From the NCBI GenBank assembly GCA_964401865.1, contig CAYNZZ010000006.1:33398-65397 (forward strand): DNA of 32,000 nt, written 5' to 3'. Every line of letters begins with the position of its first letter. Within the stretch, counting starts at the first letter, position 1. Shown one piece after another: positions 11,405-32,000 of this stretch. Origin of the DNA: an uncultured Erysipelotrichaceae bacterium. Lineage in GTDB: Bacteria > Bacillota_I > Bacilli_A > Erysipelotrichales > Erysipelotrichaceae. The notes under the pieces were generated by a model, which was not told where the DNA came from, searched no databases, and saw only the letters and a list, made by a program, of their open reading frames with translations. Both the position numbers and the translations under genes were made by a program.

Positions 11405-11432
11405 ATTAAACAACCACCAATCTAAATATTTA

Positions 11433-11475
11433 AGAAAAAACTGTAAGTACAGAATTTTCCACACTTACAGTTTTT
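11433..11475 (-). terminator. Terminator/attenuator hairpin between the adhesin gene and srtB
   Basis: AACTGTAAGT (11439-11448) pairs with ACTTACAGTT (11463-11472) across a 14-nt loop, followed on the minus strand by TTTTTTCTT. Confidence 0.55.
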
Positions 11476-11480
11476 ATTTA

Positions 11481-17400: not shown

Positions 17401-17738
17401 GGTACTAATGAATCATATCCTCCTGACTTGGTATGATAGTGGTCATATACATGCCATCCATCCATACTGGTTGTATCAATAGAAACAGCCGTACTTGTGA
17501 TACGGAAAGTAGAAGGATCCATACCTTGATCCACTAATTTTTGTGTTAATTCTTTTTTGAAGTCTAGGAATGTTCCTGGATAATCAGATGGAACATTTAC
17601 TGCAATATCGATCACTGGTGTTGGGTTGTTACCAACATCGACTGCGGCATAAACTTCTTTTGCGTTACTTTGAGCATAAGCGAAACATCCAATCAGCATC
17701 GAAAAAACTAATAGGATGTTTAAAATTTTGCGTTTCAC
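11481..17738 (-). CDS. Giant (2085 aa) cell-wall-anchored surface protein/adhesin with an SPNTG sorting signal
   Basis: GTG start with SD AAGGAGGAGAG and signal peptide MKRKILNILLVFSMLIGCFAYAQSNA. It has a PKD-like segment (YYCKLYDPNG...GTYVFELTVEDDDGEKS) and Listeria-Bacteroides-type repeats (GYTFTGWKLL, GYIFKGWSTT, GYDFVEWRLL). There are at least 7 beta-rich modules of about 80 aa ending in NHxVxVxF-like strands, an acidic linker, and DxDxDG repeats. The C-terminus is SPNTG + hydrophobic helix + KKRR. Confidence 0.9.
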   Translation of the reverse strand: MKRKILNILLVFSMLIGCFAYAQSNAKEVYAAVDVGNNPTPVIDIAVNVPSDYPGTFLDFKKELTQKLVDQGMDPSTFRITSTAVSIDTTSMDGWHVYDHYHTKSGGYDSLVPADQRGLQPYRNAGTSSMDAPANANILNYINKVTNKFINTACIQFNRHIGIYQSDTGASNMAFAGYGKPAYSDYMIYPAPSSTTRTFSFNIDASVINTHTLTAFGFWMNAGITAGSSTPTASDDMVSGYLLYFNASSAANGTGNVVIKKVNNVVADSSTSTFTGGTDMSGSAKSFSLGTQKKVRLTVELKKDSLTIQQQAYDANGNLSDPVDVLRNFAIPQFASSGTLNGLGPWVGYSSHGCNAFSAIIYTDLEMSYEASAFDALKYVQYYQGAEWKYFINLVGDSGNPNVPKDTTKDFNDGINQMTQDEIFYISNVQDGQIVRDNVKDENGKVISQGLGASNGIIATQDDYASQMAEYIAKNYFEKNHFVPQEIVSEIPLANFHVVNKADGKQLMTLHLQHLVKTNETVSVNIVDKSMPASSGAKIVKYYCKLYDPNGTEIFNGTYDDIKKVPNYTFTKNSISGTYVFELTVEDDDGEKSKTFQTYLTAYLDNKEPYIEAENSEKNKFKVVFTDTGEGIDEDGITFVSDNRGSGVAAYWITNSTTLTPEETDWEYFGELNHTQEINVPITSTDPIVVWVKDECGNIGNKAVFQPTHVRVEDPDGNPIDDYYVIGDKPIIVLPPDEDVPPSDDDDDYFSGWETPDKDPVTPGTTPDPDDNHEIIIRPNYSKDQAVLVYKANGGTIEKGEETFYVTAGASILQKVGDQDVVPEREGYTFTGWKLLKSHDANNANNSSYINNAANVEVISDQKASASANQGKQENFVADDYYYLIAQYDISKYTLRFDANGGSLGNVRSFENVEYQQSIIATDISDDTGVQAIPVTGRGIPTKPGYIFKGWSTTRDASGMFKPVSGTAKDVKMPASDMTVYAIWAEDPARFVISFDTDGGNTIKDIAFNKTANNVYPEAPTPTKPGYDFVEWRLLDGNNITSSKYPAVGTNITNNNDHGFRAIWTPRNDTKYTIEYWYNTGEKTPTGSFIYRKVSDMGATHTGTTGANVTLPNENKLPELEIDGTKYWFNEANTSNVLSGEITGSPALALKLYYDRYLNVRVITKGNGTGNSLENVKEGTNPVASWTPATGYHVTRVLVDGTVRDDLINEGGIEFTNISGNHTVYVEFGIGSTPSEPTNPDDTPKQYSVETYFEGCTDGTCSITPTTRVNAGENVTVNWTVSSGYRVTSITVDGIDYPNISETSMDFNSIASNHVIVVKVEKLPTIGGDHTDGYYTVTVNKYGGDGSLVVSPSKVVNKGDNYEVLWDVENDNYQVYKVLVDGKEITLRSKDVDGATKGFNLLKNMHGNHVVDIYYAEKPKEGEDIKEPIFNEESVKVDTQVVGGPGTITGGAIIEKGSEYDVEWELPTWVDPDSDDYKYYEITSVTVNGKEVEISEDNKVDLGKVNEDTRVVVEVKPVLYDVATQKYGDGSISVSKTLYKGQSYIDIKAQPNAGSYLVKLVVDGEEVEVSGADKLQVQVPVEPTPEPTDETENNNVSSPENSEESDTNNEVSNDIEIIETPEISEPQVSESTEELNEETSESSLFNNLFGAFRIVAEETPEVSLGTADTSGFTMAITNISNDHEITAYFAKQAVDPETGNPITTPDPDNPTGPEIPVIIDINDKELWNVTATIKDIKDDSVKVPSNVEGNGIFEDGESTTIKWNGIPSNYKIVKVEIDGNPVTFIGSELPLDNIDSDKNVVIYVQKEVTNDKDVPVDKEFHEDPYTISTAIKGATGTITSGGSVMAGNDYKVDWKVTPEAGHDYKVKDVIIDGVSRPDLVGKSTFTFKDVQANHSIVVVIGDVFKTNIDIPYPDPDSPDPDNPNYIYDGKPDLNIDTDGDGFPDVNIDIDGDGYPDINIDTDNTGIWKPSNEGGNADGIWKPDTNIDKGDGRGPVSSDRSKPVDEDGNGVDDRWKPDKNIYPNGEANPGYDTVYIKPNTPSTGDPVSDYSPNTGDDSMTPWMMLGMITSLTAYFVVKKRRNYKVQ
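11685..11945 (-). repeat. Coding tandem repeats: thrombospondin-type-3-like DxDxDG calcium-binding motifs
   Basis: Protein residues about 1932-2018 read DLNIDTDGDGFPDVNIDIDGDGYPDINIDTDNTGIWKP...ADGIWKPDTNIDKGDG...DEDGNGVDDRWKPDKN. The nucleotide level shows the matching periodicity. Confidence 0.6.
12030..14270 (-). repeat. Array of divergent Ig-like modules of about 80 aa in the adhesin, interrupted by an acidic low-complexity linker (about 12810-13010)
   Basis: The recurrent pattern is (K/T)xGxGxI..G..V..G.DY.V.W....GY.V..V.VDG.....NH.V.V.F. Examples are NHTVYVEF, NHVIVVKVE, NHVVDIYYAE and NHSIVVVIGD. Confidence 0.6.
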
Positions 17739-20801: not shown

Positions 20802-21485
20802 CTATTTATTAATATCACTGGAAACGACCTTAGCATACTTGGAGAAGGTGTTTCTAGAGATATGATGCTTTCTTAAAAGTTCTGCAATGGAAATAGTCTT
20901 TTCACCAACATTCTGGCAAAGGTACTTCCTTATATCCTCTTTAAGTTCATCATTCATCTTATCTAAATGACCAATAGCTCTTCCTGGCTTTTTGTCAGAG
21001 GCAGCCATGCCATCTTTTGTACGCTTGGATAATGTCAATCTTTCCTGTTCTGCTCTATTGAGTTCAACAATCAGCAAAAGCTTAACAGTTGATTCTAAAG
21101 ATACCTGCGCAACAAGATCCTGCTGCTCAGCAACACGAAGCAATTCTTTAATATACGCAGTAGAAACTGTTGGATTATCAATGAAGACAAGCTCTATGCC
21201 CTTCTTCATTAAACTCATGTATTTGTCATAACCATTAAGGGCTTCTCTTGTAAACCTTGAGATGTCTTTAAAGACGATGGTATCTCCAACTCTCGCCAAT
21301 GCTTCCAGTTTTTGCCATTCTTTTCTGTTTTCAAAAGACTTGCCTGATTCATCTTCCATATAGCTTACAGAATAGATGATGTTATTATCCCTGGCATACT
21401 GCTCTAAAGCTTTTTGCTGTCTGGCATACTTCTGTTTCTGTCTTTCTTCTTTTGTTGATATTCTCATGTAAGCAAAATAAGCCAT
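20802..21485 (-). CDS. Small serine recombinase (resolvase/invertase family) with C-terminal HTH
   Basis: The N-terminus AYMRISTKE carries the catalytic Ser context. DISRFTRE is the conserved DRxxR-like block. The C-terminal HTH is ISIAELLRKHHISRNTFSKY. The start overlaps the upstream stop (TAATG). Confidence 0.8.
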   Translation of the reverse strand: MAYFAYMRISTKEERQKQKYARQQKALEQYARDNNIIYSVSYMEDESGKSFENRKEWQKLEALARVGDTIVFKDISRFTREALNGYDKYMSLMKKGIELVFIDNPTVSTAYIKELLRVAEQQDLVAQVSLESTVKLLLIVELNRAEQERLTLSKRTKDGMAASDKKPGRAIGHLDKMNDELKEDIRKYLCQNVGEKTISIAELLRKHHISRNTFSKYAKVVSSDINK

Positions 21486-22432
21486 TAGTCATGACCTCCC
21501 AGGAAATTCATGATCAATGTTACCATTGTTTCCTTCTCTTCTGGCCTGCTCTCTGCCACCATCAAAGTAATTGCCACTAAAGCACTATTAGAAATGACCT
21601 GGCTTCCATTTCTTCTTAATGCATTATTCTTATTTAAAAACTCAAGGAATATTGAAGCACCAATTCTCTTGCAGCCATCCGCAAAAGGGTGGTCCTTGAT
21701 AAGGAAATAGAGAAGATTGGCAGCCTTCTCTTCAATGCTTGGATATACTTCCGTACCAAAGACATTCTGATAAACTGCTTCCAAAATACCATTCAGTTTG
21801 CCCTTCTCCTTTTCAACGCCAAATACATCAGAGTTAAACTTCATAGAATCAATCAGTTTTCTGCATTCCTCATAGTTAAGACGATAAAGGGTATCATTGC
21901 CTTCTGGACGGTTTAAACTCTGATGATCATAGTCATCTAGAAGATCCAAGGCCTTTGTATATTCAATTACAACCTTATAGACATCTTCCCCTTCAAACTC
22001 TAGTGCAGAAGCCAGCATCTTGGACTGAATCTCAATTGTCTTATTCAAAGACTCGAGTCTTTTCTCGTTGATGGCATAACCCTTGAGAATGTAATCTTTC
22101 AAAACTGAACTTGCCCATCTTCTGAAGGCAATGCCCTGTTTTGACTTGACACGATATCCAACAGAAATGATCATATCCAAGTTATAATGTTCTACCATTC
22201 GAGTTACGTCTCTTGTTCCTTCAGCTTGAACTGTCGCAAATTTTGCGACAGTTGAAAGTTCCGCCTCTTCCTTAAGAGCATTGTTGATATGTTTACCTAT
22301 TGTTTTGATGTCTCTTCCGAATAATTGAGCCAACTGTTCACGATTTAGCCATACAGTTTCCTGCTTTGGATCAATCTGAACTTCTATTTCGAGTTCACCA
22401 TCTTTATAAATAACTATTTCATTTCTATCCAT
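21485..22432 (-). CDS. RhuM-family N-terminal domain fused to a Fic/Doc-like domain
   Basis: The N-terminus IVIYKDGELEIEVQIDPKQETVWLNREQLAQLFGRDIKTIGKHINN...YNLDMIISVGYRVKS is RhuM-family-like. The C-terminus has a Fic/Doc core motif, HPFADGCKRIG. Confidence 0.7.
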   Translation of the reverse strand: MDRNEIVIYKDGELEIEVQIDPKQETVWLNREQLAQLFGRDIKTIGKHINNALKEEAELSTVAKFATVQAEGTRDVTRMVEHYNLDMIISVGYRVKSKQGIAFRRWASSVLKDYILKGYAINEKRLESLNKTIEIQSKMLASALEFEGEDVYKVVIEYTKALDLLDDYDHQSLNRPEGNDTLYRLNYEECRKLIDSMKFNSDVFGVEKEKGKLNGILEAVYQNVFGTEVYPSIEEKAANLLYFLIKDHPFADGCKRIGASIFLEFLNKNNALRRNGSQVISNSALVAITLMVAESRPEEKETMVTLIMNFLGGHD

Positions 22433-22498: not shown

Positions 22499-22529
22499 AA
22501 ATAGTCAAAATCCATTATTTTGACTATTT
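22499..22529. repeat. Perfect 13-bp inverted repeat (AAATAGTCAAAAT / ATTTTGACTATTT, 5-nt spacer), candidate operator
   Basis: Read directly. The arms are 22499-22511 and 22517-22529. It is nested inside a second 10-bp inverted repeat, 22471-22480 / 22529-22538. Confidence 0.6.
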
Positions 22530-22551: not shown

Positions 22552-22587
22552 TTAAAAAATGACCATCCTTTTTCAGAATTGGCCATT
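22552..22587 (-). terminator. Terminator candidate ending the six-gene operon
   Basis: The minus strand reads AATGGCCA-attctgaaaaagga-TGGTCATT followed by TTTT (8-bp stem with one G-U pair), about 170 nt after the XRE stop. Confidence 0.4.
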
Positions 22588-22755
22588 TTTAGGCATTTTA
22601 AGCAACGTTTTGTGTTGGATGATGAGTATCATTAACTGAACGAATTTAACCGGTCAATTTTGGATCACTTTTCTCATTCTACAAAACGTTATGAAAATGA
22701 AACAGCATGCCATATCACGCCAATTCATTCCTTAGTCCAATCACAGATAAGTGTA

Positions 22756-22965
22756 TTATTGGTTTTCTGGAAGGACTTCCATAACATCATCTATACTACA
22801 TTCAAAATGTTTGCATATTTTGACCATTACTTCCATAGATACAATTTCATTCTTGCCAAGTTTTGCTAGAGTAGGACCACTGATTCCAACTTGCTTTGCA
22901 AACTGTGTTTTGCTTAATCCTTTATCAACGAGAAGTTTAAACAGATTGTTGTATTTGACATCCAT
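22756..22965 (-). CDS. XRE-family helix-turn-helix transcriptional regulator (69 aa)
   Basis: LSKTQFAKQVGISGPTLAKLGKNEIVSMEVMVKICKHF is a Cro/C1-type HTH. SD AAGGAG. It starts 11 nt after the DGQHR gene stop. Confidence 0.8.
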   Translation of the reverse strand: MDVKYNNLFKLLVDKGLSKTQFAKQVGISGPTLAKLGKNEIVSMEVMVKICKHFECSIDDVMEVLPENQ

Positions 22966-22976
22966 ATCCTGACTCC

Positions 22977-25283
22977 TTACAAAGTTAAAATGTTCATAAT
23001 CCAGTCATAGATAGACTTAACATAGCTGTATTCATCAACAGGAACACTGTAGCTATCTTTTGCAAGCTTATTATGGATAGAATTGACCTTAATAATCCAA
23101 TCTGTCTTAACATCTTTTCCGCCTTTTAACTTTTCTTCTTCAGGGCGAACAAAGGTATCTTCGAAATGCATCGACCAGTTATTACCATTCAATAAGATTG
23201 GCTTACATTCAGAGAACGGAACATAATCCCAAATTGGAATTTCTACATCTTCACCATCATTGCTAATTAGCTCATACATAGCCTCATCAGCAAGACCTTT
23301 TGCCTTTGTATAGATGTTCTTCGGTACTCCTTTGACTAACCAACTATCTCCGTAATAGTCTTGCAATCTTTCGGAAATAATTGACTTTACCTTGCTTTCA
23401 ATATCTTCAATCATTGCTTTAGTCTCGTCGTTGTAAATCTTCGTTTCATTTAACCAGTATTCCTCTAAACCAACCGGTTTGAAATCCGGTCTAGCGTCAG
23501 CGATTGCCTTTTGATATGCTCTCCAGAACCTAGTGTCTGCTCCACCACCAAAATAACCTCTTAAGTCTTTCTTTTGTTCAGCAGTCATTTTATTGATATA
23601 GTCCGATAGTGGCTTTAGATAATAACTTATCAAACCGAACATATCGTCTGCATCTTGTTTCTTTGGTTCGATCATTCCTTTGTCAACAAGCATGCACACA
23701 ACATCATCCAACACCCTAATTACAGCTTGCATGCCTCTATTCATTGTCAACATACCACTGTCTTTATCGCCCTTGTCCCATTCATCCAGACATGCCTCTC
23801 TGAGGTATAAAAGGCATTTTTCTAGGAAAGGATAGAAAAGATCACACGTCTCTTGATTTTGCCCACAATCAAAAGTTCCTTCTTTTTGAAGGACATTCTT
23901 TTTGCCATATGTATTGAAGAAATTGCTTTTCTTTAATGCAACTTGGATAGCTTCAACAGTAATACATCTTTCAGGCGTTACTTCATTTTCACCTATTACA
24001 ACTCTGCCATGTAAAGGAGATGTGGGTTCTTCGCCAAGCATCTGTGCAATTTTTGATCTTAGCGCCTGTCTCTGTTCACCTAAATCGCTCGATTCCCATA
24101 ACATATCTGCATTCAATGTTACACGCAATGACTTCGGAACAGCTTTTTGGTTTTCATTGATATCCATGAACAGCTTTATTTGTTCTGTTCTTTCCAAATC
24201 AACAAATGCAACGACAGGTATCGTGTTAGTTGAGGCATATTTAGAATCTGAGTAACCATAAAGACGATGTTGCCCATCAATGATATACGCAGATCTATAT
24301 CTCTTAGGAATATGTAAGACACCAATTTTAGATAAAGTTCCTTCTACTCTAGTAGATGATTGATCAAAAGTTAATCCCTTTCCGTTAGCGTCAATGCTGA
24401 TGATGATTGAGTTTGGGAAATACCCTCCATTGTCAATAAATGATTTAACATCTTGTAATCTTTTCTTCTTAATAATTCTTTGATAAGTAGGCATCATATT
24501 CTGGTTAGCTTCAGAGCGATGCAGCACATAGCCAATCTTTAATAATCTCTCCGGCTCAATCGAAAATGAGTAATATGTATATCCACCCATTTTTCCTTGA
24601 ATCGCAGGAACTCTGTCATCCATGTTTTTAATTTCCTGATTGGCAAATAGATTACCCAATAACTGGTATCTTGAACTTGAACCCAAATGTTTTGATAATT
24701 CTGAGTAGTACTCAACGGCAGAGTTATCAAAAAAGGTAATTCCATATTTATCAAGCTGAGCTAAGTCACGTCTATTTGTTATAAAGTTTCGTGATGCCCA
24801 GATAAATTTTATTTTTCTTCCTGGATATTGTTGGAGTATCTCCTTCCTCATGCCTTGTAGTTTGTTTCCGAAATCATTTATTTCCTCATAGAAGCTCTTT
24901 TCAACGACAACATCAGAAGCTTTACATACAACTGCCAGTATTGTCTCGTCATCCGCTGCGATAATATCAATGTTTTCCTTTAATTTTGGATCATGAAAAT
25001 CATAAGCAACCCTAACGCTTTCAAGAGAATTCATATTTGTAAAACCCATACTCAAAAAGAGTATCCATAGCTGATCTGTAAACTGTTCAATAGCTGGTTT
25101 TTCTTTTGAAACTGCAACAAACTTCGGATTCTTGAATTCCTTGGTTTTTTCCCAACCGAGGTCCACATATTTCGGAAGTTCAGATGCTAAGACCTTCTGG
25201 GTAACATCTTTCTTTTTTCTAGAATTCTTAATCGGCACTAAATCTTTTCCAGATACCATTACATCCCAATTAGTTCTTTCCAT
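22977..25283 (-). CDS. DGQHR-domain (DndB/DpdB-like, ParB/Srx-fold) protein with large N- and C-terminal extensions
   Basis: An exact DGQHR signature lies in SAYIIDGQHRLYGYS (codons at 24264-24278). At 768 aa it is roughly twice the length of a stand-alone DndB. Strong SD GAAGGAGG. The start overlaps the methylase gene by 14 nt. Confidence 0.75.
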   Translation of the reverse strand: MERTNWDVMVSGKDLVPIKNSRKKKDVTQKVLASELPKYVDLGWEKTKEFKNPKFVAVSKEKPAIEQFTDQLWILFLSMGFTNMNSLESVRVAYDFHDPKLKENIDIIAADDETILAVVCKASDVVVEKSFYEEINDFGNKLQGMRKEILQQYPGRKIKFIWASRNFITNRRDLAQLDKYGITFFDNSAVEYYSELSKHLGSSSRYQLLGNLFANQEIKNMDDRVPAIQGKMGGYTYYSFSIEPERLLKIGYVLHRSEANQNMMPTYQRIIKKKRLQDVKSFIDNGGYFPNSIIISIDANGKGLTFDQSSTRVEGTLSKIGVLHIPKRYRSAYIIDGQHRLYGYSDSKYASTNTIPVVAFVDLERTEQIKLFMDINENQKAVPKSLRVTLNADMLWESSDLGEQRQALRSKIAQMLGEEPTSPLHGRVVIGENEVTPERCITVEAIQVALKKSNFFNTYGKKNVLQKEGTFDCGQNQETCDLFYPFLEKCLLYLREACLDEWDKGDKDSGMLTMNRGMQAVIRVLDDVVCMLVDKGMIEPKKQDADDMFGLISYYLKPLSDYINKMTAEQKKDLRGYFGGGADTRFWRAYQKAIADARPDFKPVGLEEYWLNETKIYNDETKAMIEDIESKVKSIISERLQDYYGDSWLVKGVPKNIYTKAKGLADEAMYELISNDGEDVEIPIWDYVPFSECKPILLNGNNWSMHFEDTFVRPEEEKLKGGKDVKTDWIIKVNSIHNKLAKDSYSVPVDEYSYVKSIYDWIMNILTL

Positions 25284-26100
25284 CCTTTACCTCCTTCTCT
25301 GGTATGTTAGTGAATATGTATTCTTTTACTAACCCTCTTCTAGCGTTTCGGCCACCAATAACACTGTTTCTATTTTCGACTATCAGTCTTCCTTTGCTTG
25401 CAAATATATCAACAATTGTTTCGTGTGCCGCATTTGTCATAATGTAGTACGCTCCAACGCTATTTATATGGTCAATTAATTCCCCTAACCTTCTTTGATC
25501 GTCCATTGAGAATAATTTAGCGTTGTATTGAAGAAAGCCGTTTTTTACTTCCGCAACAACATATGGAGGATCAAGAAACACCAAATCTCCTTTTTTTATA
25601 TTCTTTTTTGAATCGGAAAAATCACCAGTACTAATTGTTGTGTTTTGTAGTTTACAACTTGCCCATTTTAATTTATCTATGTCGTGTGTATAATTTCGAT
25701 GCCCATACGGAACGTTGTATTTACCTTGACGATTGACGCGATATATTCCGTTAAACGACGTTGCGTTCAAGTAGATGAACTTTGCGGCTTTCTCACATAA
25801 AGTGTTTGGTTCAGATGATCGCATTGCATAATAGGCATCCTCTCCATTTTCATAGTTTTCTAAAACACCGGAAACACCATCTAAATCATCCCTTATTTGA
25901 ACATAAGCATTAATTAAATCCTCATTTATATCAGATAAATACGCTTGCTTATCTCGCTCTAATGAAAAGAAAATAGATGCACCACCTAAAAATGGTTCAA
26001 TATAATTATTAAACTCCAATCCATCGATTAGTTCTTTCACAAAAGGGATCAGCCATTTTTTCCCTCCGGCCCAACGCAAAAAAGAATGATTATTCATCAT
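25270..26100 (-). CDS. N6-adenine DNA methyltransferase, D12 class (Dam family)
   Basis: FLRWAGGKKWL and EPFLGGASIFF form the Dam-type SAM-binding region, and VFLDPPYV is catalytic motif IV (DPPY). 276 aa. Target sequence unknown. Confidence 0.85.
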   Translation of the reverse strand: MMNNHSFLRWAGGKKWLIPFVKELIDGLEFNNYIEPFLGGASIFFSLERDKQAYLSDINEDLINAYVQIRDDLDGVSGVLENYENGEDAYYAMRSSEPNTLCEKAAKFIYLNATSFNGIYRVNRQGKYNVPYGHRNYTHDIDKLKWASCKLQNTTISTGDFSDSKKNIKKGDLVFLDPPYVVAEVKNGFLQYNAKLFSMDDQRRLGELIDHINSVGAYYIMTNAAHETIVDIFASKGRLIVENRNSVIGGRNARRGLVKEYIFTNIPEKEVKDGKN

Positions 26101-27683
26101 TAATACCCCCTTACTAACTCAAGCAGATAATACTTAGCCCTTGTGTAGGCTATGTAATTCATGTTATCGGTTGTACTTGGTGAATGTATATATACAACCA
26201 TATCTGCTTCCAATCCTTTATATTCAAGAATTGATGCAACCCTGATTTCAGAACCAGAGGAAATTTTGTCACCAACGAAAGACCATTTCGCAATGCCGTT
26301 CTTGTATTGTTCCATAAATTCTTCCTTATTATCAACAATCAAAATCATAGAAGAATTAGGCAAATGCTCATCGTCAATATACCTTTTAAACAGGATTTCT
26401 AAACGTTGAGTCATTAAATTATGACTGTTGATGGTTTCTGTTTGTGGTGTAGGACCTTCTACAGGGTTTGATACCATATCAGTACCTAAATTTGTTTTCT
26501 CTGCTGTCCAATTATAAATGTTGGATGTATTTCGTATATTTTCGTGAAGAAGGAATGGGGGAGTAGAAATTCCAAAACCCTCACCAAAACTATCCTGTCT
26601 TAATATCTGAACATCATCATAAAAAACTCCAAGAATAGATTTTTCACTATCTTTAAGAAGATGTTTTATTGTCTTTGCGCATTCTTCAGAAAAGTCCTGA
26701 GCCTCATCAACAAATATTGCATCGTATTTATTTAGGTCATTTTTTAGATTGCTATAAACCCCAATATAATACGGGCCTTGCAGCATCTCAAAATCAGTTA
26801 TTATTTCTTCAAATAACGACCTTATATCTCTTACCTCAACGCTATTCTCTGTTATTTCTCTTAAATATTCCGCAAGACATTTCGAAGCGCATAAGAAAAG
26901 TGTCTTTTTTCCAAAAGAAGCCTCTTTTTCGGCCATTTTCTTAGCAATCCATGTTTTCCCGGTTCCAGCTCCACCTTTCATATAAAATTGGCGAATATTT
27001 TGGAGCAAATATACATAATTGTCTTGGACTCTATTTATTACGTTAAGTTGTTGGTCTTTGTATTGTACTAAAGCTCCTGCAGCAGCACTTATGGCCAATC
27101 GTTCTCTTACTAGTTCAAGAAAGGTTTTGTGTTGATTTGCAGGATAATACCAGCCGTATGGTTTCTTGTTGTAGAATTTAAAAATTCTTTTTATCTTACT
27201 GTAAAGGTTGTTTAAATCGTGTTGATCGATTGTAATCTCACGATGTCTATTATCTATTGCGTCTTCTTCGCCAATAGCGTGAAAAGGAAAGACCGCTGCA
27301 GCACCAAAAATGCCAGGGTAATCAATATAATTACGATTAGAATACTGATTTTTGAAATAATACATGCTTTCTTCTGCTTGATCATATGGAGATCTGTGTA
27401 GCTTTCTATCTCCATGAAGAGTATCCCCCACATACCAGACATTGTCTTTAATTGATAAATTACTGCCCCCCTTGACCTCTAAACAAAGAAAACCATATTC
27501 CGACGAAGTCACAACAAAATCCGATTCTGACTTAACAATCTTTCCATCTTTAATATCCGTCCATTTAACCGAATAAAAAACTTCAAAAGAATCTGGCAAT
27601 TGATTTTTCAATTCATAGTAAACTAATCTTTCCGAATCGGTTGGCATGTATTCTGCAATACTTTTGGGATACATAATAGCCAT
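26100..27683 (-). CDS. NERD-domain nuclease fused to a compact SF1 (UvrD/RecD-like) helicase/ATPase
   Basis: The N-terminal NERD pattern is SERLVYYELKNQLP...ESDFVVTSSEYGFLCLEVKGG. Walker A is GGAGTGKT and Walker B is AIFVDEAQDF. Late SF1 motifs are YKGLEADMVVYI and YIAYTRAKYYL. Confidence 0.75.
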   Translation of the reverse strand: MAIMYPKSIAEYMPTDSERLVYYELKNQLPDSFEVFYSVKWTDIKDGKIVKSESDFVVTSSEYGFLCLEVKGGSNLSIKDNVWYVGDTLHGDRKLHRSPYDQAEESMYYFKNQYSNRNYIDYPGIFGAAAVFPFHAIGEEDAIDNRHREITIDQHDLNNLYSKIKRIFKFYNKKPYGWYYPANQHKTFLELVRERLAISAAAGALVQYKDQQLNVINRVQDNYVYLLQNIRQFYMKGGAGTGKTWIAKKMAEKEASFGKKTLFLCASKCLAEYLREITENSVEVRDIRSLFEEIITDFEMLQGPYYIGVYSNLKNDLNKYDAIFVDEAQDFSEECAKTIKHLLKDSEKSILGVFYDDVQILRQDSFGEGFGISTPPFLLHENIRNTSNIYNWTAEKTNLGTDMVSNPVEGPTPQTETINSHNLMTQRLEILFKRYIDDEHLPNSSMILIVDNKEEFMEQYKNGIAKWSFVGDKISSGSEIRVASILEYKGLEADMVVYIHSPSTTDNMNYIAYTRAKYYLLELVRGY

Positions 27684-27685
27684 AT

Positions 27686-29590
27686 TTACATCTCCCAGAA
27701 GCCAACTTTTATTTCTTTGGCTCCATCAATTGAATATAGATACTTTCTACCTAGTTCCAGATTAAAATGGTTACATGAGATTTCAGGGAGAATAAGGCAT
27801 GCGCTACATGCAGTATCGTCTCTTTCTGTGCAAATAGGATCAAAAACACAGTTCTTTGATTCGTCAAATGTTTTCTTTAAGTAATATAAATATCTCGATT
27901 CCGCCATGCCAGATAATGCACCTAATGGGATACCTTGGCTTGTCTGTGCATAAATAAAGATGCTAGCAGTTTCTACAATTATTATTTCGGTTAATGAATT
28001 GCTAGACAAACCACTTATTTCACCTGCAGATTCGATAAACGCATGTGACATAGAATGTAAAAGCGAATAAACGTTTTTTGTAATTTCCTCGCTGTTATCG
28101 ATGCTGCCAAACATCGGAATAGCATCACTATGAACATATTCTGCAAACCATTTCTTTACAGAGATTTCGTCATCTAGATCTGGTACCATTTCTTCTCTGA
28201 TGACACCATTTGCTAATAACCATTCAATGATTTTCCTTTGGTCAATCTCAAATAAAATACCTTCAGTATCTAACCTAGAGCCAAAAACTAGATTAGTGTT
28301 TGAATTCTTGCTCCTGTCATATGCGTTTAGTTTCAACCTACAATTTTTATTAGTAGAATTGCTAGGATCAACTGATCTTCTAGTATATCCATACGTACAA
28401 TTTACGATTTGTGAGTCACAGGTAACTTGCATATTCTTGATACCAAGTTTTTTATTCATATCATACACTTCATCCACAGAATCAATGAATTCCATATCCA
28501 ATTGTCTCTGGATGGAGTCCTCTAAAGTGATGACTCGTTTAGCATCTTTTATCGTGTTGTATTGCATCAACTTAAAAGAGAAATTATTGATCCATTCATT
28601 ATATGCGTTCGGATCATCTGATTTTCTTTTAGAAAATAGTTCATCACATGCAGTGACATAACGTTCAACACCTTTATCATTGGATTTGGTTTTCATTATC
28701 TGTGCAACCGTTTCATCAAATTTCTCAGGTGCAATAAGTCCAATAGCGATCAACCCATTAGCTTGATTTTCAGCCTCTTTTCTTACTGACTCGTCTTTAT
28801 ATTCGTCGCTAAAAGCAAGCTCAACATTATTTAATATGAAATCAAAATTTGATGGCGTAATTTTGTCGAACCATTTAGATACTAAAACTTTTTGGGCGTC
28901 TAATCCTTTTTCATAAAACTTTCCACTTTGTGTATCAACTAGATTAATAATTCTTAATGTGAATGGTTTGTAATTCTTTCCTGAGCTAGCATTATCTGGA
29001 CGTAGATGTGAATTACAATTCGGACAAACTTGGATAAATTCAGCTGTTTTTTCACTATTCCCATTTCTATATATCATCTTATATGGGTTATCATTTGGAC
29101 GATATTTGAAATCTTTGACATTTTTAACATAGGGAATCTTGATTGGCTGGGCATAGCCACATTCGCATGTATAAATCATCTGTAGCTGCTTAACAGAATT
29201 CTTTTTGCATTCTGGACATCTCCATGTATATTTATCAACAGCGCCTGCACTTTTCTTTTCAAACGCGGTTCCGCATGAACCGCAATAAAAAACCAAAGGC
29301 GAAATTTCTCCCATAATATCTGGAGTGTTTTCAATACAAGCGGTCTCTACTATTTCAAATGATGGGGTGTTTTCTTGCAAATTGAATGCGGATATATCAC
29401 CATTTCTATTCTCAAACAATCTTATTTGTCGCTTGATTTCACTGTCTATGAACTTGTCGTAAATGCCTTCCATCTTTCTATAATTCCAATTTTTGATCTT
29501 GGCAGTTACCACTTCACTTGTATCATTCCTCTCAGAGATCCACATTTCCGGAAGGAATCTATATACTGCCTGATTTTTGCTTCTTTTCAT
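27686..29590 (-). CDS. DUF1998-domain zinc protein (DISARM DrmB-like)
   Basis: The C-terminal Cys cluster is CVFDPICTERDDTACSACLILPEISCNHFNLELGRKYL, a DUF1998/MZB-type signature. N-terminal CxxC pairs are CGSC...CPEC and CEC...CPNC. It starts 10 nt after the helicase stop, with SD AAGGAGAGG. Confidence 0.7.
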   Translation of the reverse strand: MKRSKNQAVYRFLPEMWISERNDTSEVVTAKIKNWNYRKMEGIYDKFIDSEIKRQIRLFENRNGDISAFNLQENTPSFEIVETACIENTPDIMGEISPLVFYCGSCGTAFEKKSAGAVDKYTWRCPECKKNSVKQLQMIYTCECGYAQPIKIPYVKNVKDFKYRPNDNPYKMIYRNGNSEKTAEFIQVCPNCNSHLRPDNASSGKNYKPFTLRIINLVDTQSGKFYEKGLDAQKVLVSKWFDKITPSNFDFILNNVELAFSDEYKDESVRKEAENQANGLIAIGLIAPEKFDETVAQIMKTKSNDKGVERYVTACDELFSKRKSDDPNAYNEWINNFSFKLMQYNTIKDAKRVITLEDSIQRQLDMEFIDSVDEVYDMNKKLGIKNMQVTCDSQIVNCTYGYTRRSVDPSNSTNKNCRLKLNAYDRSKNSNTNLVFGSRLDTEGILFEIDQRKIIEWLLANGVIREEMVPDLDDEISVKKWFAEYVHSDAIPMFGSIDNSEEITKNVYSLLHSMSHAFIESAGEISGLSSNSLTEIIIVETASIFIYAQTSQGIPLGALSGMAESRYLYYLKKTFDESKNCVFDPICTERDDTACSACLILPEISCNHFNLELGRKYLYSIDGAKEIKVGFWEM

Positions 29591-29600
29591 GTACCTCTCC

Positions 29601-32000
29601 TTAATTTATTTTTATTTCAATCTGTTCTTCTGTGTCTCTCAAACTTCTCATTGGTTTCTTATTGCCTTTTGAGAATTTTGCGATTACATCTGATAGGAAC
29701 TCATCTTTAGTGAAATTTCCTGTCTGAATACCAGTAAGAATATTAGTCGCTTCTTCATTAATTATTTCTGCATAAGCAATAGACAATTTTTCCTGGCTAT
29801 TACATCCATAAATTCCAATTAACTTTTCAACCACATCATCAACTCTGATTTTTCCATCGGCAAGTAACTTCTTGACTTTTGTTGCAAAGTATAAATTATC
29901 TTCGCCAGTCAAAACCGTATAATACTGCATCAATAAACCAGATAATAGGCCCGGCAATGTACTGTAAATAGCATTTTTTGCCCATCTATTAATCGGAACT
30001 GACTCTACTAAATCATCTTTATTCTGGTGGAACACGACGAAATTCTTGAGGTATGACCTATCTCTTACTCTCATTAGTCTGATGATATCTATAACAATTC
30101 CGGTGTACTTTCTGCCAGTTCTTGAATACGCCTGGATATACTCGGCATTATTATTTGGCATTCCAAAGAAATACATAATGTTAAAAGAATCTTCATCAAC
30201 ACCATGCGAAATAGTGCTTGTTGCCAACAACAAATTGGTGCTTTCAACATTCTTTCGATTAGCTTGAATATTAAACAGCGTTTGTCGAACAGATTGGAAG
30301 TCCGTGTCACTTGTCATCTGACTAATTACAAATTTAGGAACATTTTTGGCCTCTAGGAAGTTATTGCCCTGATTCTGAAATGCATTTTCCAATTCCATGG
30401 CATCTTGTTTCCTGTTGTTATAAACAAGCTCAATCCAGTAATCAAACAGCTTTTCTTTAAGTTCTTCTTCTGAACCATTAAATCCTTTTTCCTGTAAATC
30501 TTTTAATACAGAATTTGTATTCTTCATCATGTAATGGATTAATAGCCTCATAAAATAAACCGATTCCCACATTCCATCAGTGATTGAACGACCATATGGA
30601 GCATATCCTAACAAGATTCTTGAAATATCGTTTCCGTCGGTGTAGGAATAAAAATCTTCATCTGATTTTGTTGACGGATATTCACAAGGGAATCTTCTTC
30701 CCTGCATATGATACAGGTTGAGAATATGATCTTTGTACATGGAAATTGTTGCCGTAGCACCTATAAAACGAATCTGTTTCTGTTGACTCTTAGGAACAAG
30801 ATTTTTTGCATAATAACTCATAAATGACTCGTAATGCGAATCGAAAGTACCTAAGCTTTCCTTAACAAGATGCATTTCATCCTGAATAAATAATGTTGGA
30901 ATAGGATCCTTTAGAACGCCCACATCTTCTAAGGCGTCTCTGTTTAAACAACTTGAGCACGTACATTTTCCAGTGGCAGAAAAGCCATGAATCTTACACT
31001 TTTTCTTTACTTGTCCAAAAAGCATTTTGAATTCATTGGTCGTGCCTAACATAGCCATCTTGTCAATCGTACTAACCACAATAGATGGCAAATAACGATA
31101 GATTTCGCTATCCACAATAAGCAACGGTAACACTCCTGCTTTACAGTCAGGATTGTCACAAACATGTTCTAGTTTCCACGTACTCTTGTTAAATCGAACA
31201 TTAACCATTTTTTTGCCACAGCACGGGCATGTATCGATAAATCTATAATATTCATTTAACGTATCTTGATCGCTCTCAAGAATTAAGTTTGTGTCTTTGC
31301 CAGCGCCTCTATCGCTTAATTTCTCATGTTCGTTAATTCTGTTTGGTGTGTTTTCTTTGCCCACAAAGAAACCAACAGAAAATGGATTTGTCAGAGACAA
31401 ATCGCTGTTATCCTTAACGATATTTGCTTTCATTACGATGTTTAATACTCTGTCTAACTGTTGAACCGCCAATAAACGCAAAGGATACTTAAGAATTGCT
31501 GTGATTCCTTCGTCTTTGCCTCTTAAACGATCGAAGAACATAGCGAAAACGCTTATGCCCAAGAATGCCTCTGTCTTTCCGCCACCTGTTGGGAAATATA
31601 AAAGATTTGCGATTTCATTATCAGCTTCTTTTATAGTCGTATCATCTTTATATTCACTTCGTATGATTTCACAAATCATCGATACTATAAATACTATCTG
31701 GAATAAACGCCATCCAACTATTGGCCTTTGATTATTGCCGAGCTTGGTCATAAAGGTTTGGTTGGTAAATACAAACGCACGTTTTACATAATCTTTGTAC
31801 TTAATCTGATCAATACCCTTTCTGAAACGTTTAATTTCTCTTTGGTATTCCTCTAACGACTCTTTGAACTTTGCTTTGGCTGCAGGCGATAATGTATGAG
31901 TATTCTTAAATTCTTTTTCACACTCGTTATAGTCAGATATCATCTCATCATATATAAAAGTCAAATTTGTAACTGGATCTTCTATAAGTTTTTCGAACAG
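29601..32000 (-). CDS. SF2 DExH-box helicase (DISARM DrmA-like), 5'-truncated by the window edge
   Basis: Motif I YFPTGGGKTEAFLG, Ia PLRLLAVQQ, II FIQDEMHLV, III IGATATIS and V/VI LLATSTISHGVDE...YIQAYSRTGRK. The reading frame has no stop between 31964 and 32000 (LFEKLIEDPVTN precedes the track's TTG), so the true start is outside the window. Confidence 0.75.
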   Translation of the reverse strand: MFEKLIEDPVTNLTFIYDEMISDYNECEKEFKNTHTLSPAAKAKFKESLEEYQREIKRFRKGIDQIKYKDYVKRAFVFTNQTFMTKLGNNQRPIVGWRLFQIVFIVSMICEIIRSEYKDDTTIKEADNEIANLLYFPTGGGKTEAFLGISVFAMFFDRLRGKDEGITAILKYPLRLLAVQQLDRVLNIVMKANIVKDNSDLSLTNPFSVGFFVGKENTPNRINEHEKLSDRGAGKDTNLILESDQDTLNEYYRFIDTCPCCGKKMVNVRFNKSTWKLEHVCDNPDCKAGVLPLLIVDSEIYRYLPSIVVSTIDKMAMLGTTNEFKMLFGQVKKKCKIHGFSATGKCTCSSCLNRDALEDVGVLKDPIPTLFIQDEMHLVKESLGTFDSHYESFMSYYAKNLVPKSQQKQIRFIGATATISMYKDHILNLYHMQGRRFPCEYPSTKSDEDFYSYTDGNDISRILLGYAPYGRSITDGMWESVYFMRLLIHYMMKNTNSVLKDLQEKGFNGSEEELKEKLFDYWIELVYNNRKQDAMELENAFQNQGNNFLEAKNVPKFVISQMTSDTDFQSVRQTLFNIQANRKNVESTNLLLATSTISHGVDEDSFNIMYFFGMPNNNAEYIQAYSRTGRKYTGIVIDIIRLMRVRDRSYLKNFVVFHQNKDDLVESVPINRWAKNAIYSTLPGLLSGLLMQYYTVLTGEDNLYFATKVKKLLADGKIRVDDVVEKLIGIYGCNSQEKLSIAYAEIINEEATNILTGIQTGNFTKDEFLSDVIAKFSKGNKKPMRSLRDTEEQIEIKIN

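What the first reader, a model, noticed from the sequence alone, without database searches (positions are those of the whole stretch)
22756..32000. Six-gene coupled operon combining the DISARM helicase/DUF1998 core with a NERD-SF1 helicase, a Dam-class methylase, a giant DGQHR protein and an XRE regulator: candidate undescribed defence architecture
Seen in the sequence: all six ORFs are on the minus strand and each has its own SD. The junctions are a 10-nt gap (29601/29590), a 2-nt gap (27686/27683), a 1-nt TAATG overlap (26100), a 14-nt overlap (25270-25283) and an 11-nt gap (22977/22965). The first gene is open at the window edge, and the only terminator candidate is at 22552-22587. Established knowledge: DISARM is defined by DrmA (SF2 helicase), DrmB (DUF1998) and DrmC (PLD nuclease). 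These come with either DrmD plus the adenine methylase DrmMI, or DrmE plus the cytosine methylase DrmMII. DGQHR proteins are the DndB/DpdB-type ParB-like components of phosphorothioate and 7-deazaguanine DNA-modification islands. NERD is a PD-(D/E)xK-type nuclease domain. Inference: the nuclease slot is filled here by a NERD-nuclease/SF1-helicase fusion. The methylase is a small D12/Dam enzyme. A DndB-like protein from a different family of modification systems has also been recruited. I know of no named system with this composition. The logic (methylase for self-marking, two helicases and a nuclease as effector, ParB-like and XRE proteins for control) fits a modification-dependent self/non-self defence system.
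Basis: partly seen in the sequence, partly recalled or inferred. Interest (0 to 1): 0.9.

Follow-up and report, generated by a model that had tools for sequence, protein, structure and literature searches.

The report
DISARM-like defence operon with captured methylase module
This gut-bacterial operon is a real, undescribed relative of the DISARM anti-phage system. A helicase pair works with two extra helicase-nucleases and an adenine methylase. In this lineage the methylase came from a separate, widespread two-gene module, and its large partner protein appears to have lost its nuclease activity.

Summary
Six tightly packed minus-strand genes encode the C-terminal part of DrmA, DrmB, a NERD+SF1 helicase, a D12/Dam methylase, a 768-aa DGQHR protein and an XRE-type HTH.

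An almost identical contig extends the operon upstream. It adds the rest of DrmA (1131 aa), a UvrD/GajB-like helicase and a second HTH. There is no PLD DrmC, SNF2 DrmD or DrmE.

Comparing about 170 related loci splits the operon into two units.
- **Unit 1:** UvrD-like, DrmA, DrmB and NERD-helicase always occur together in this order. A D12 methylase sits next to them in 65 of 66 informative loci, in three arrangements. Only one arrangement includes the DGQHR gene.
- **Unit 2:** Dam plus the giant DGQHR protein is an independent pair. It occurs in more than 500 species across many phyla, with no other conserved neighbour.

The DGQHR protein has three domains: PD-(D/E)xK nuclease, ParB-like DGQHR and Swt1-type HEPN. 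The nuclease motif is intact in about 77% of stand-alone copies. It is degenerate in all 44 copies joined to DrmAB, including this one.

Verdict: a new variant of DISARM that captured a restriction-modification-like module. All functions are inferred and untested.

The parts
29601..32000 (-). C-terminal 799 aa of DrmA, a split YprA-family SF2 helicase. The full gene encodes 1131 aa and continues 996 nt beyond the window edge.
   Evidence: PADLOC DrmA 2.1e-136, Pfam DEAD and Helicase_C. The full-length gene on L001 gives NCBIfam DISARM_DrmAS 2e-103, below the cut-off. GGGKT and DEMH motifs are present.
27686..29590 (-). DrmB, the separately encoded zinc-binding OB-CON-DUF1998 'canopy' partner of DrmA.
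   Evidence: PADLOC DrmB 9e-48 and NCBIfam DrmB_fam 7e-22, below the cut-off. The Cys cluster is invariant in an alignment with a haloarchaeal DUF1998 protein from a canonical class 2 DISARM operon.
26100..27683 (-). NERD (PD-(D/E)xK) nuclease fused to an SF1 helicase. It is the predicted DNA-cutting effector and occupies the DrmC slot.
   Evidence: Pfam NERD 4.7e-8 plus SF1 P-loop families. PADLOC RT-associated NERD-helicase 1.8e-45 over the full length. E18, D55 and E69 are conserved in 62/62 and K71 in 61/62 distinct homologues; Walker A and the Walker B aspartate in 62/62.
25270..26100 (-). D12-class N6-adenine DNA methyltransferase (Dam family), the predicted self-marking enzyme.
   Evidence: Pfam MethyltransfD12 1.4e-46, TIGR00571 dam 5.5e-56 (above the cut-off), PADLOC MTase_II 7.9e-84. 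The closest solved structure is DpnM (M.DpnII, GATC) at 4e-43, followed by E. coli and T4 Dam. The DPPY motif is present.
22977..25283 (-). 768-aa three-domain protein. Residues ~40-215 are PD-(D/E)xK-like, 225-530 are the DGQHR ParB/DndB-like NTPase domain, and ~600-768 are Swt1-type HEPN. Both nuclease-type motifs are degenerate in this copy.
   Evidence: TIGR03187 DGQHR 7.5e-49 and PADLOC DpdB 1.9e-24. The AF2 model has pLDDT 90. Foldseek returns ParB-N plus many PD-(D/E)xK nucleases. Family members hit HEPN_Swt1, Hjc, NERD, Card1_endonuc and Mrr_cat. Here the family's E119 is V, HEPN R737 is H and H742 is K.
22756..22965 (-). XRE/Cro-type HTH protein (69 aa). This trailing gene is found in the window's own lineage, with one possible parallel in a variant B locus.
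   Evidence: Pfam HTH_26 1.4e-15, HTH_3 1.4e-7. It is absent after the DGQHR gene in 70%-identity operons. A different HTH gene opens the operon on L001.
22552..22722 (-). Intergenic stretch with two terminator-like hairpins: 22703-22722, and 22553-22591 followed by a T-run.
   Evidence: Terminator scan, inverted repeats I2/I4 and the sequence itself. These are consensus matches only.

Best explanation
The operon is one methylation-based self/non-self defence system of the DISARM lineage, assembled from two modules.

**Core module.** It consists of a D12 adenine methylase, a UvrD/GajB-like helicase, the split YprA helicase DrmA+DrmB and a NERD-SF1 helicase-nuclease.

**Inferred mechanism.** This follows from what has been shown for DISARM DrmAB.
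1. The methylase marks host DNA. The motif is probably GATC or similar.
2. DrmAB loads on single-stranded 5' ends of incoming or replicating foreign DNA. Unmethylated DNA stimulates its ATPase.
3. The NERD-helicase takes the place of the PLD nuclease DrmC and cuts the DNA. The UvrD-like helicase occupies the position that DrmE holds in class 2 DISARM and assists.

**Captured module.** In the window's lineage the methylase was supplied by a pre-existing two-gene Dam+DGQHR module. On its own, that module looks like a restriction-modification pair. Its 'restriction' protein combines a PD-(D/E)xK nuclease, a ParB-like NTPase and a HEPN domain.

After capture, the DGQHR protein kept its NTPase core but lost its nuclease catalytic residues. 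It most likely now acts as a DNA- or methylation-state sensor, or as a helper or regulator of the methylase, and not as an effector.

**Regulation.** The HTH proteins probably control transcription.

**Shown versus inferred.** Gene content, order, conservation, motif states and the fold model are shown. All biochemical roles and the defence function are inferred.
For: **Operon extent.** L001 is the same sequence as the window (2 mismatches in 14,315 nt). It shows HTH - UvrD-like - DrmA(1131 aa) - DrmB - NERD-helicase - Dam - DGQHR - HTH, with no PLD, SNF2 or DrmE.

**A linked core.** Across DrmB homologues of 54-100% identity, UvrD-like/DrmA/DrmB/NERD-helicase keep the same order. A D12 methylase is adjacent in 65 of 66 informative loci. 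There are three arrangements: 52 core-Dam-DGQHR, 7 core-Dam and 5 Dam-core. The core therefore always has a methylase, and DGQHR is optional.

**An independent Dam+DGQHR pair.**
- The giant DGQHR family has 500 50%-identity clusters at E<=1e-30.
- More than 509 loci were confirmed in species-representative genomes.
- Dam is the only conserved neighbour: 71 of 80 loci, 64 of them directly upstream.
- DrmAB genes appear only beside the closest DGQHR relatives, those at >=70% identity.

**Nuclease decay.**
- The D106/D111/E113/E119/K121 motif is intact in about 56 of 73 stand-alone copies. It is intact in 0 of 44 DrmAB-linked copies, which fall into 14 motif classes.
- The DGQHR pentapeptide is invariant in the DrmAB-linked copies and changed in only one stand-alone copy (DSQHR, L044).
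- The ratio of N-terminal to DGQHR-domain identity is 0.72 in linked copies and 0.87 in stand-alone copies.
- By contrast, the NERD catalytic residues are conserved in 62/62 sequences (K71 in 61/62).

**Coupling.** The NERD-helicase stop and the Dam start overlap by 1 nt here and in 70% homologues.

**Placement near DISARM.** The closest plasmid-borne full-length DrmB lies in a canonical DrmE-DrmA-DrmB-PLD-C5 methylase operon.

**Published mechanism.** The DrmAB mechanism and the dispensability of DrmC are described in PMC9142583.
Against: - There are no experimental data for any of these genes.
- All composite operons form one clade, mostly gut Clostridia. The link between joining DrmAB and nuclease-motif decay may therefore rest on a single evolutionary event.
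- About 23% of stand-alone DGQHR proteins also carry degenerate motifs, and no partner explains this.
- DrmA and DrmB score far below the curated DISARM cut-offs. The Serratia DrmAB mechanism may not transfer.
- The GATC assignment rests only on similarity to DpnM and Dam.
- Tight packing and overlapping stop/start codons also occur between independent neighbouring systems in defence islands.
Confidence: 0.6

Rival explanations
1. Two independent defence systems sit side by side. One is a Dam+DGQHR restriction-modification-like pair that works alone, as it does elsewhere. The other is a methylase-less helicase/nuclease system (UvrD-like, DrmA, DrmB, NERD-helicase) that senses DNA structure and not methylation. 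They are co-transcribed only because defence genes cluster and embed in one another.
For: Dam+DGQHR is self-contained in most of the 80 genome loci. Nesting of defence systems in the same orientation is common (10.1101/2024.01.29.577857). DISARM can act on DNA that lacks methylation sites, and DrmAB recognises 5' overhangs (PMC9142583).
Against: Lineages whose core lacks DGQHR still carry their own D12 methylase directly attached: 12 loci in two different positions. The core therefore seems to need a methylase, and in the window the only one is the DGQHR-linked Dam. All 44 DGQHR proteins in composite operons have degenerate nuclease motifs, so the pair could hardly restrict DNA by itself.
Confidence: 0.2
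2. The DGQHR protein is not a former restriction enzyme. It is a modification accessory in all contexts, helping or limiting the methylase. This would parallel DpdB, which drives base insertion by DpdA, and DndB, which limits phosphorothioation. On this view Dam+DGQHR is a modification-only module, and its nuclease-like domains bind DNA or RNA.
For: The best defence-model match is DpdB at 1.9e-24. DpdB is a ParB-like ATPase needed for DNA modification, and DndB is a proposed negative regulator (PMC12839542; PMC10853773). The DGQHR motif is the only part that never varies in linked copies.
Against: About 77% of stand-alone copies keep a complete D...D.E...ExK motif. In the 50-sequence family alignment about two-thirds keep the HEPN R and H residues. 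This pattern points to catalysis, not mere binding. The pair spreads widely by horizontal transfer, as restriction-modification systems do.
Confidence: 0.15
3. It is an ordinary class 1 or class 2 DISARM. The remaining genes (drmC with drmD or drmE) lie elsewhere, and the NERD-helicase, Dam and DGQHR genes are passengers.
For: DrmA and DrmB hit the DISARM models. In one related lineage a PLD-helicase-DUF3427 gene follows the operon.
Against: No PLD, SNF2 or DrmE gene occurs within 5.3 kb upstream or 22 kb downstream in this genome. None is conserved across about 70 loci with 10-kb flanks. The PLD-helicase-DUF3427 gene is a 1051-aa fusion unlike DrmC, and it is absent here.
Confidence: 0.03

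Closest known systems
DISARM class 2 (DrmE-DrmA-DrmB-DrmC-DrmMII)
   Same: The YprA helicase is split into DrmA and an adjacent DrmB. A DNA methylase is in the operon, and a nuclease gene follows DrmB directly. The closest plasmid-borne DrmB relative lies in exactly such an operon. NCBIfam's short-form DrmA model scores best.
   Different: There is no PLD DrmC, no DrmE and no C5 methylase. Their places are taken by a NERD-SF1 helicase, a UvrD-like helicase and a D12 adenine methylase. DrmA and DrmB fall far below the curated family cut-offs.
ARMADA type II (ArmA-D) and TALON (PMC12458937)
   Same: These are methylase-plus-multi-helicase systems built around a YprA-family helicase. ARMADA II also contains a GajB/UvrD-like helicase with an extra N-terminal domain. 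TALON pairs a YprA helicase with a NERD nuclease.
   Different: The ARMADA and TALON helicases are unsplit and carry BrxA-like inserts and C-terminal nucleases. ARMADA needs a BrxHII-like helicase and a PglX-like methylase. TALON has TPR-CSD and TBP genes. None of these is present here.
Dpd (7-deazaguanine) system, DpdB component
   Same: A DGQHR ParB-like protein is encoded together with a DISARM-branch YprA helicase. DpdB is the best defence-model match for the DGQHR domain.
   Different: There is no DpdA transglycosylase and no preQ0 pathway genes. The modification enzyme is a Dam methylase. The protein is twice the size of DpdB and has extra PD-(D/E)xK and HEPN domains.
DpnII-type GATC restriction-modification (DpnM methylase)
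   Same: The methylase is most similar to DpnM at 4e-43. In stand-alone loci it is paired with a protein that carries a restriction-endonuclease fold.
   Different: The partner is not a DpnII/MboI-type enzyme. It is a 750-780-aa fusion of nuclease, ParB-NTPase and HEPN domains. The specificity has not been tested.
GmrSD / SspE (ParB-like DUF262 NTPase fused to a nuclease) and the 'ParB (Saro_3948)' Swt1-HEPN fusion listed in PMC3710099
   Same: A ParB/Srx-fold NTPase with a DGQ(H/Q)R motif is fused to nuclease domains in a defence context. Saro_3948 is from Novosphingobium aromaticivorans DSM 12444, the organism whose plasmid pNL1 carries the giant DGQHR gene matched here, so it is probably a member of this family. 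The locus tag itself was not verified.
   Different: GmrSD and SspE use an HNH nuclease and attack modified DNA, or sense phosphorothioate. Here the partner is a methylase, which implies protection by modification. The papers searched do not describe the pairing with Dam or the N-terminal PD-(D/E)xK domain.
Nhi and RT-associated NERD-helicases (PADLOC RTasNERD-Hel)
   Same: They have the same two-part build, a nuclease followed by an SF1 helicase. The full-length match to the RT-associated model is 1.8e-45.
   Different: Here the protein is always found with DrmAB and a UvrD-like helicase, not with a reverse transcriptase or on its own.

Membership tests
DISARM | DrmA SF2 (YprA-family) helicase | tested here: met
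   PADLOC DrmA 2.1e-136. NCBIfam DISARM_DrmAS 2e-103, but 347 bits against a 950-bit cut-off.
DISARM | DrmB (OB-CON-DUF1998) encoded as a separate gene next to DrmA | tested here: met
   PADLOC DrmB 9e-48 and NCBIfam DrmB_fam 7e-22, below the cut-off. There is a 10-nt gap after drmA. The Cys cluster is conserved.
DISARM | DrmC PLD-family nuclease | tested here: not met
   No PLD domain occurs in any of the eight operon genes or their neighbours. A NERD-helicase occupies the slot.
DISARM | Class-specific pair: DrmD (SNF2) + DrmMI, or DrmE + DrmMII (C5 methylase) | tested here: not met
   The upstream genes are an HTH and a UvrD-like helicase. The methylase is D12 class.
DISARM | Protection against phage that depends on DrmA and DrmB | not testable with these tools
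   This needs expression and phage challenge.
Dpd system | DpdA transglycosylase and 7-deazaguanine synthesis genes alongside DpdB | tested here: not met
   Only the DGQHR domain matches DpdB, at 82 bits against a 300-bit cut-off. No such genes are in the operon.
Dnd phosphorothioation | DndC, DndD and DndE alongside DndB | tested here: not met
   DndB model 3.3e-10, far below the cut-off. No Dnd genes are in the window.
Type II-like restriction-modification (Dam + DGQHR pair) | Methyltransferase with SAM-binding and DPPY catalytic motifs | tested here: met
Type II-like restriction-modification (Dam + DGQHR pair) | Partner protein with a catalytically competent endonuclease domain | tested here: not met
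   The family has a PD-(D/E)xK fold and motif. The window copy has V at the E119 position, and HEPN R737 is H and H742 is K.
ARMADA | [quoted passage not shown] | tested here: not met
   The helicase is split into DrmA and DrmB, and no BrxHII or PglX hits were found. The definition is from PMC12458937.

The most novel reading that the evidence does not exclude
Dam plus the PD-(D/E)xK-ParB(DGQHR)-HEPN protein is an unnamed, widespread class of NTP-dependent restriction-modification system. In gut Clostridia its nuclease-dead DGQHR protein has been re-used as the methylation-state sensor or licensing factor. In that role it couples a Dam mark to a DISARM-like helicase/NERD-nuclease machine. This would be a documented case of one defence system capturing another and dividing the work between them.
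Probability: 0.3. Interest if true: 0.75.

Novelty: new variant of a known kind. Interest (0 to 1): 0.58.

Why it matters
**For DISARM.** How activated DrmAB leads to DNA destruction is still unclear, because the PLD nuclease DrmC is dispensable. This natural variant swaps DrmC for a NERD-helicase with strictly conserved catalytic residues and adds a UvrD-like helicase. It offers a cleaner system for asking what the effector step is.

**For human gut bacteria.** The variant is common in human gut metagenomes. One DrmB variant alone is indexed in 148 blocks of the assembly collection. It may therefore affect phage and plasmid traffic in abundant gut Clostridia.

**For the Dam+DGQHR pair.** The pair occurs in more than 500 species across many phyla, and PADLOC-DB v2 has no dedicated model for it. 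If it is a restriction system, it adds a new enzyme architecture. It would also extend the ParB-NTPase-plus-nuclease theme of GmrSD and SspE to protection by methylation.

**For evolution.** The contrast between intact and decayed nuclease motifs gives a testable example of how defence modules merge.

Tried and rejected
- **Standard DISARM with passengers: rejected.** The extended contig and about 70 related loci show no PLD, SNF2 or DrmE.
- **A single conserved six-family system: rejected.** DGQHR is absent from variants B and C, and the trailing HTH gene is lineage-specific.
- **A third conserved gene beside Dam+DGQHR.** All-against-all clustering of the flanks found none.
- **Extra effector genes beside stand-alone DGQHR copies with degenerate motifs.** No pattern emerged.
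- **Structure prediction of the N-terminal domain of the UvrD-like protein.** Pfam and a PDB profile search found nothing, so the domain remains unassigned.
- **PDB sequence search with the NERD-helicase.** No hits.
- **Viral contig scan with DrmB.** No relatives, so there is no evidence of phage carriage.
- **Literature.** Searches on DISARM, DrmA, DndB, DGQHR, NERD, DUF1998, Swt1 and HEPN found no description of this operon or of the Dam+DGQHR pairing. They found only the general remark that many uncharacterised DISARM-like classes exist and a 2013 listing of the ParB-HEPN fusion.
- **Not available here.** DefenseFinder, PADLOC system-level rules and REBASE could not be run.


Full report
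**1. The observation**

The ORF listing reproduces every coordinate and junction in the finding. The five starts that lie inside the window are each preceded by a Shine-Dalgarno-like run.

The first gene is open at the window edge. Its reading frame continues through base 32000.

| Gene | Best evidence |
|---|---|
| DrmA | PADLOC 2e-136 |
| DrmB | PADLOC 9e-48 |
| NERD + SF1 helicase | Pfam NERD 4.7e-8; PADLOC 'RT-associated NERD-helicase' 1.8e-45 over the full length |
| D12/Dam methylase | Pfam 1.4e-46; TIGR00571 above its cut-off |
| DGQHR protein | TIGR03187 7.5e-49, above its cut-off |
| HTH | HTH_26 1.4e-15 |

There are two caveats.
- Pfam's DUF1998/MZB model does not hit the window DrmB at E<=0.01.
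- DrmA and DrmB score far below NCBI's curated DISARM thresholds: 347 against 950 bits and 78 against 240 bits. These are divergent relatives, not ordinary members.

**2. Beyond the window**

An exact-protein look-up found Logan contigs that carry the same DrmB. Contig L001 matches the window with 2 mismatches over 14,315 nt and adds 5,355 nt upstream.

The operon there reads HTH (67 aa) - UvrD/GajB-like helicase (647 aa) - DrmA (1131 aa) - DrmB - NERD-helicase - Dam - DGQHR - HTH. None of the upstream genes is a PLD nuclease, an SNF2 helicase or DrmE.

The rest of the window holds ordinary chromosomal genes of a Gram-positive gut bacterium: lactate permease, pyruvate phosphate dikinase, sortase and choloylglycine hydrolase. 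A serine resolvase and a RhuM/Fic gene lie next to the operon. This suggests a small mobile island.

**3. Is the gene set conserved?**

A DrmB search returned 1081 homologues. The best 120 are all at >=69% identity. The contexts of two 70% homologues show the same genes in the same order, with a leading HTH gene visible in the longer of the two contigs and no trailing HTH. One of them lies beside conjugative-element genes.

I then asked the question from both ends.

*Starting from the DGQHR protein.*
- An exhaustive search of 1.84 billion cluster representatives found 500 clusters at E<=1e-30. Most are full-length proteins of 750-780 aa at 26-58% identity.
- A scan of one genome per species with an alignment of 50 of these proteins matched more than 600 stretches. 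Of these, 509 were confirmed, in Bacillota, Bacteroidota, Actinomycetota, Pseudomonadota, Chloroflexota, Nitrospirota and others.
- In the 80 loci returned with 10-kb flanks, phmmer with the window's proteins found a D12 methylase in 71. In 64 it lies directly upstream on the same strand.
- DrmA, DrmB, the NERD-helicase and the UvrD-like helicase appeared only in the three loci closest to the window, at >=70% identity. One further locus, L015, carries a UvrD-like fragment joined directly to the DGQHR gene.
- Clustering all flanking ORFs found no other conserved neighbour.
- Dam plus the giant DGQHR protein is therefore an independent two-gene module.

*Starting from DrmB.* A metagenome scan gave 80 loci at 54-71% identity.
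- UvrD-like, DrmA, DrmB and NERD-helicase are always together and in the same order.
- Of 68 loci with the complete four-gene core, 65 have an adjacent D12 methylase. Two end at the contig edge, and one has an internal deletion.
- The methylase occurs in three arrangements:

| Variant | Gene order | Loci |
|---|---|---|
| A | core - Dam - DGQHR (the window type) | 52 |
| B | a different D12 methylase upstream of the core, no DGQHR | 5 |
| C | core followed by yet another D12 methylase, no DGQHR | 7 |

- The genes that follow in variants B and C are unrelated to one another.
- The conserved system is thus five genes: a D12 methylase plus the four-gene core. DGQHR arrived together with its own Dam in one sub-lineage.

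**4. What the DGQHR protein is**

The family alignment shows three conserved blocks.
- An N-terminal D106...D111-x-E113...E119-x-K121 pattern.
- The invariant DGQHR motif.
- A C-terminal R-N-x3-H pattern.

An AlphaFold2 model built from this alignment has a mean pLDDT of 90. Foldseek against the PDB returns a ParB N-terminal domain. It also returns a series of PD-(D/E)xK enzymes: AF1548, Card1/Cdn1, NucS/EndoMS, McrC, N.BspD6I and XisH. The whole-chain E-values are weak, at >=3e-3, but the local probabilities are near 1.

Scanning the 50 family members one by one gives DndB in 49, HEPN_Swt1 in 10, Hjc in 7, NERD in 3, Card1_endonuc in 2 and Mrr_cat in 1. The architecture is therefore PD-(D/E)xK nuclease - ParB-like DGQHR NTPase - Swt1-type HEPN.

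A 2013 survey lists a Swt1-HEPN fusion to ParB, typified by Saro_3948 from Novosphingobium aromaticivorans DSM 12444 (PMC3710099). The plasmid pNL1 of that organism carries a giant DGQHR gene that matches the window protein at 31% identity. Saro_3948 is therefore probably a member of this family. The record shown here uses different locus tags, so that identity was not checked. I found no description of the pairing with Dam. PADLOC-DB v2 has no dedicated model for the family, only domain-level DpdB/DndB hits.

**5. Motif states**

The window copy reads D-D-E-V-K at the nuclease positions, so E119 is V. At the HEPN positions, R737 is H and H742 is K.

- Among stand-alone loci, about 56 of 73 keep the full nuclease motif.
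- Among operons that contain DrmAB, none of 44 does. They fall into 14 different degenerate states, such as GDELH, SDESH, DDEER and DDEVK.
- The DGQHR pentapeptide is unchanged in all linked copies. Only one stand-alone copy departs from it (DSQHR in L044).
- The HEPN arginine is missing both from all the linked copies and from their nearest stand-alone Firmicutes relatives. That loss therefore came earlier.
- At comparable divergence, the N-terminal domain is relatively less conserved in linked copies. The identity ratio to the DGQHR domain is 0.72 against 0.87.
- In contrast, the NERD residues E18, D55 and E69 are conserved in 62/62 and K71 in 61/62 distinct NERD-helicases. Walker A and the Walker B aspartate are conserved in all 62.

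These comparisons are not phylogenetically independent, because the linked copies form one clade. The variety of substitutions nevertheless indicates continuing relaxed constraint on the nuclease site, while the protein as a whole stays intact.

**6. The most likely mechanism**

Cryo-EM and in vivo work on Serratia DISARM shows several things (PMC9142583).
- DrmAB is auto-inhibited and loads on DNA with a 5' overhang.
- Unmethylated DNA strongly stimulates its ATPase, and methylated DNA much less.
- DrmC is dispensable.

By analogy, I propose the following. The D12 methylase marks the host genome. DrmAB detects unmethylated single-stranded ends of invaders. The NERD-helicase sits in the position held by PLD in the nearest canonical operon and provides the cut. 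The UvrD/GajB-like helicase assists. A GajB-like helicase is also essential in the related ARMADA II system.

The methylase is closest to DpnM, followed by E. coli and T4 Dam, all of which are GATC enzymes. GATC is also depleted in the window, with an observed/expected ratio of 0.60. That depletion is only a hint.

The captured DGQHR protein keeps its NTP-binding core but lacks catalytic residues. It is best read as a sensor, clamp or methylase helper. Two precedents point the same way. DpdB is an ATPase needed for DNA modification. A DndB-like protein has been shown to bind ATP and GTP (PMC12704722).

The gene content and motif states are shown. Every functional step is inferred.

**7. Rival explanations**

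- *Two independent neighbouring systems.* This is the main alternative. It is weakened by two facts. The core always carries a methylase of its own when DGQHR is absent. The DGQHR nuclease motif is degenerate in every linked copy.
- *DGQHR is a modification accessory everywhere.* This would fit DpdB and DndB. It does not explain why most stand-alone copies keep complete nuclease and HEPN motifs.
- *Ordinary DISARM with passenger genes.* This is effectively excluded.

**8. Comparison with known systems and novelty**

The system shares DISARM's defining split helicase and a methylase. It fails the DrmC and DrmD/DrmE criteria.

It also differs from ARMADA, BRIGADE and TALON as defined in PMC12458937. 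[quoted passage not shown] This operon is best filed as one of them, so I rate it a new variant of a known kind.

The stand-alone Dam+DGQHR pair may be the more novel element. I could not check it against REBASE or current DefenseFinder models.

**9. Limits**

- There are no experiments.
- No system-level PADLOC or DefenseFinder run was possible.
- The N-terminal 230 aa of the UvrD-like protein remain unassigned.
- No relatives were found in viral contigs.

Noticed in passing
window 22499-22529: A perfect 13-nt inverted repeat (AAATAGTCAAAAT / ATTTTGACTATTT, 5-nt spacer) lies just upstream of the RhuM/Fic gene. It looks like an operator site.
   Followed up: no
window 20802-22432: A RhuM/Fic-family gene (21485-22432; PADLOC candidate PDC-S23, 1.8e-129) shares one base (21485) with the start of a serine resolvase gene (20802-21485). 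Together with the operon they may form a small mobile defence island.
   Followed up: partly
whole window: GATC is among the three most depleted 4-base palindromes: 82 observed against 137 expected, a ratio of 0.60. CGCG and GGCC are lower still.
   Followed up: no
L002, L003, L004 (Logan contigs): Contigs of exactly 15,129 bp carrying the operon recur in several independent samples. Assemblies seem to break at the same island borders, which suggests a strain-variable insert.
   Followed up: no
L171:13152-15062, L172:10390-12300, L173:11715-13610: In variant C a conserved ORF of 632-637 aa with no Pfam hit follows the methylase. It may be a functional stand-in for the DGQHR protein.
   Followed up: partly
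L003, L005, L140, L135, L015: Some metagenomic copies are decaying or rearranged. DrmA or the UvrD-like gene is split by frameshifts, and L140 has many frameshifts. In L135 a deletion joins the NERD-helicase to the DGQHR gene. In L015 a UvrD-like fragment abuts the DGQHR gene.
   Followed up: no
L007-L009: In the 70%-identity lineage the operon lies beside RepA_N, NikA-like and Cys_rich_VLP genes, which are typical of conjugative elements. It is followed by a PLD-helicase-DUF3427 fusion, a HAD-family gene and a TIR gene. This is a defence island on a mobile element.
   Followed up: no
L093 (Novosphingobium aromaticivorans plasmid pNL1, 5992-12490): A giant DGQHR family member (31% identity) has no Dam neighbour here. 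It sits next to a radical SAM gene, a small 335-aa DGQHR gene and two ATP-binding genes, possibly a different modification system.
   Followed up: no
L001:2404-3108 (outside the window): The first ~230 aa of the UvrD-like helicase form a well-conserved domain with invariant D41-P42, E88 and K112-F-P-Y-K-H117. It has no Pfam or PDB match.
   Followed up: partly
window 10640-17738: A 2085-aa protein with Flg_new (Listeria-Bacteroides) repeats lies next to a sortase gene. It is a large cell-wall-anchored surface protein, unrelated to the finding.
   Followed up: no
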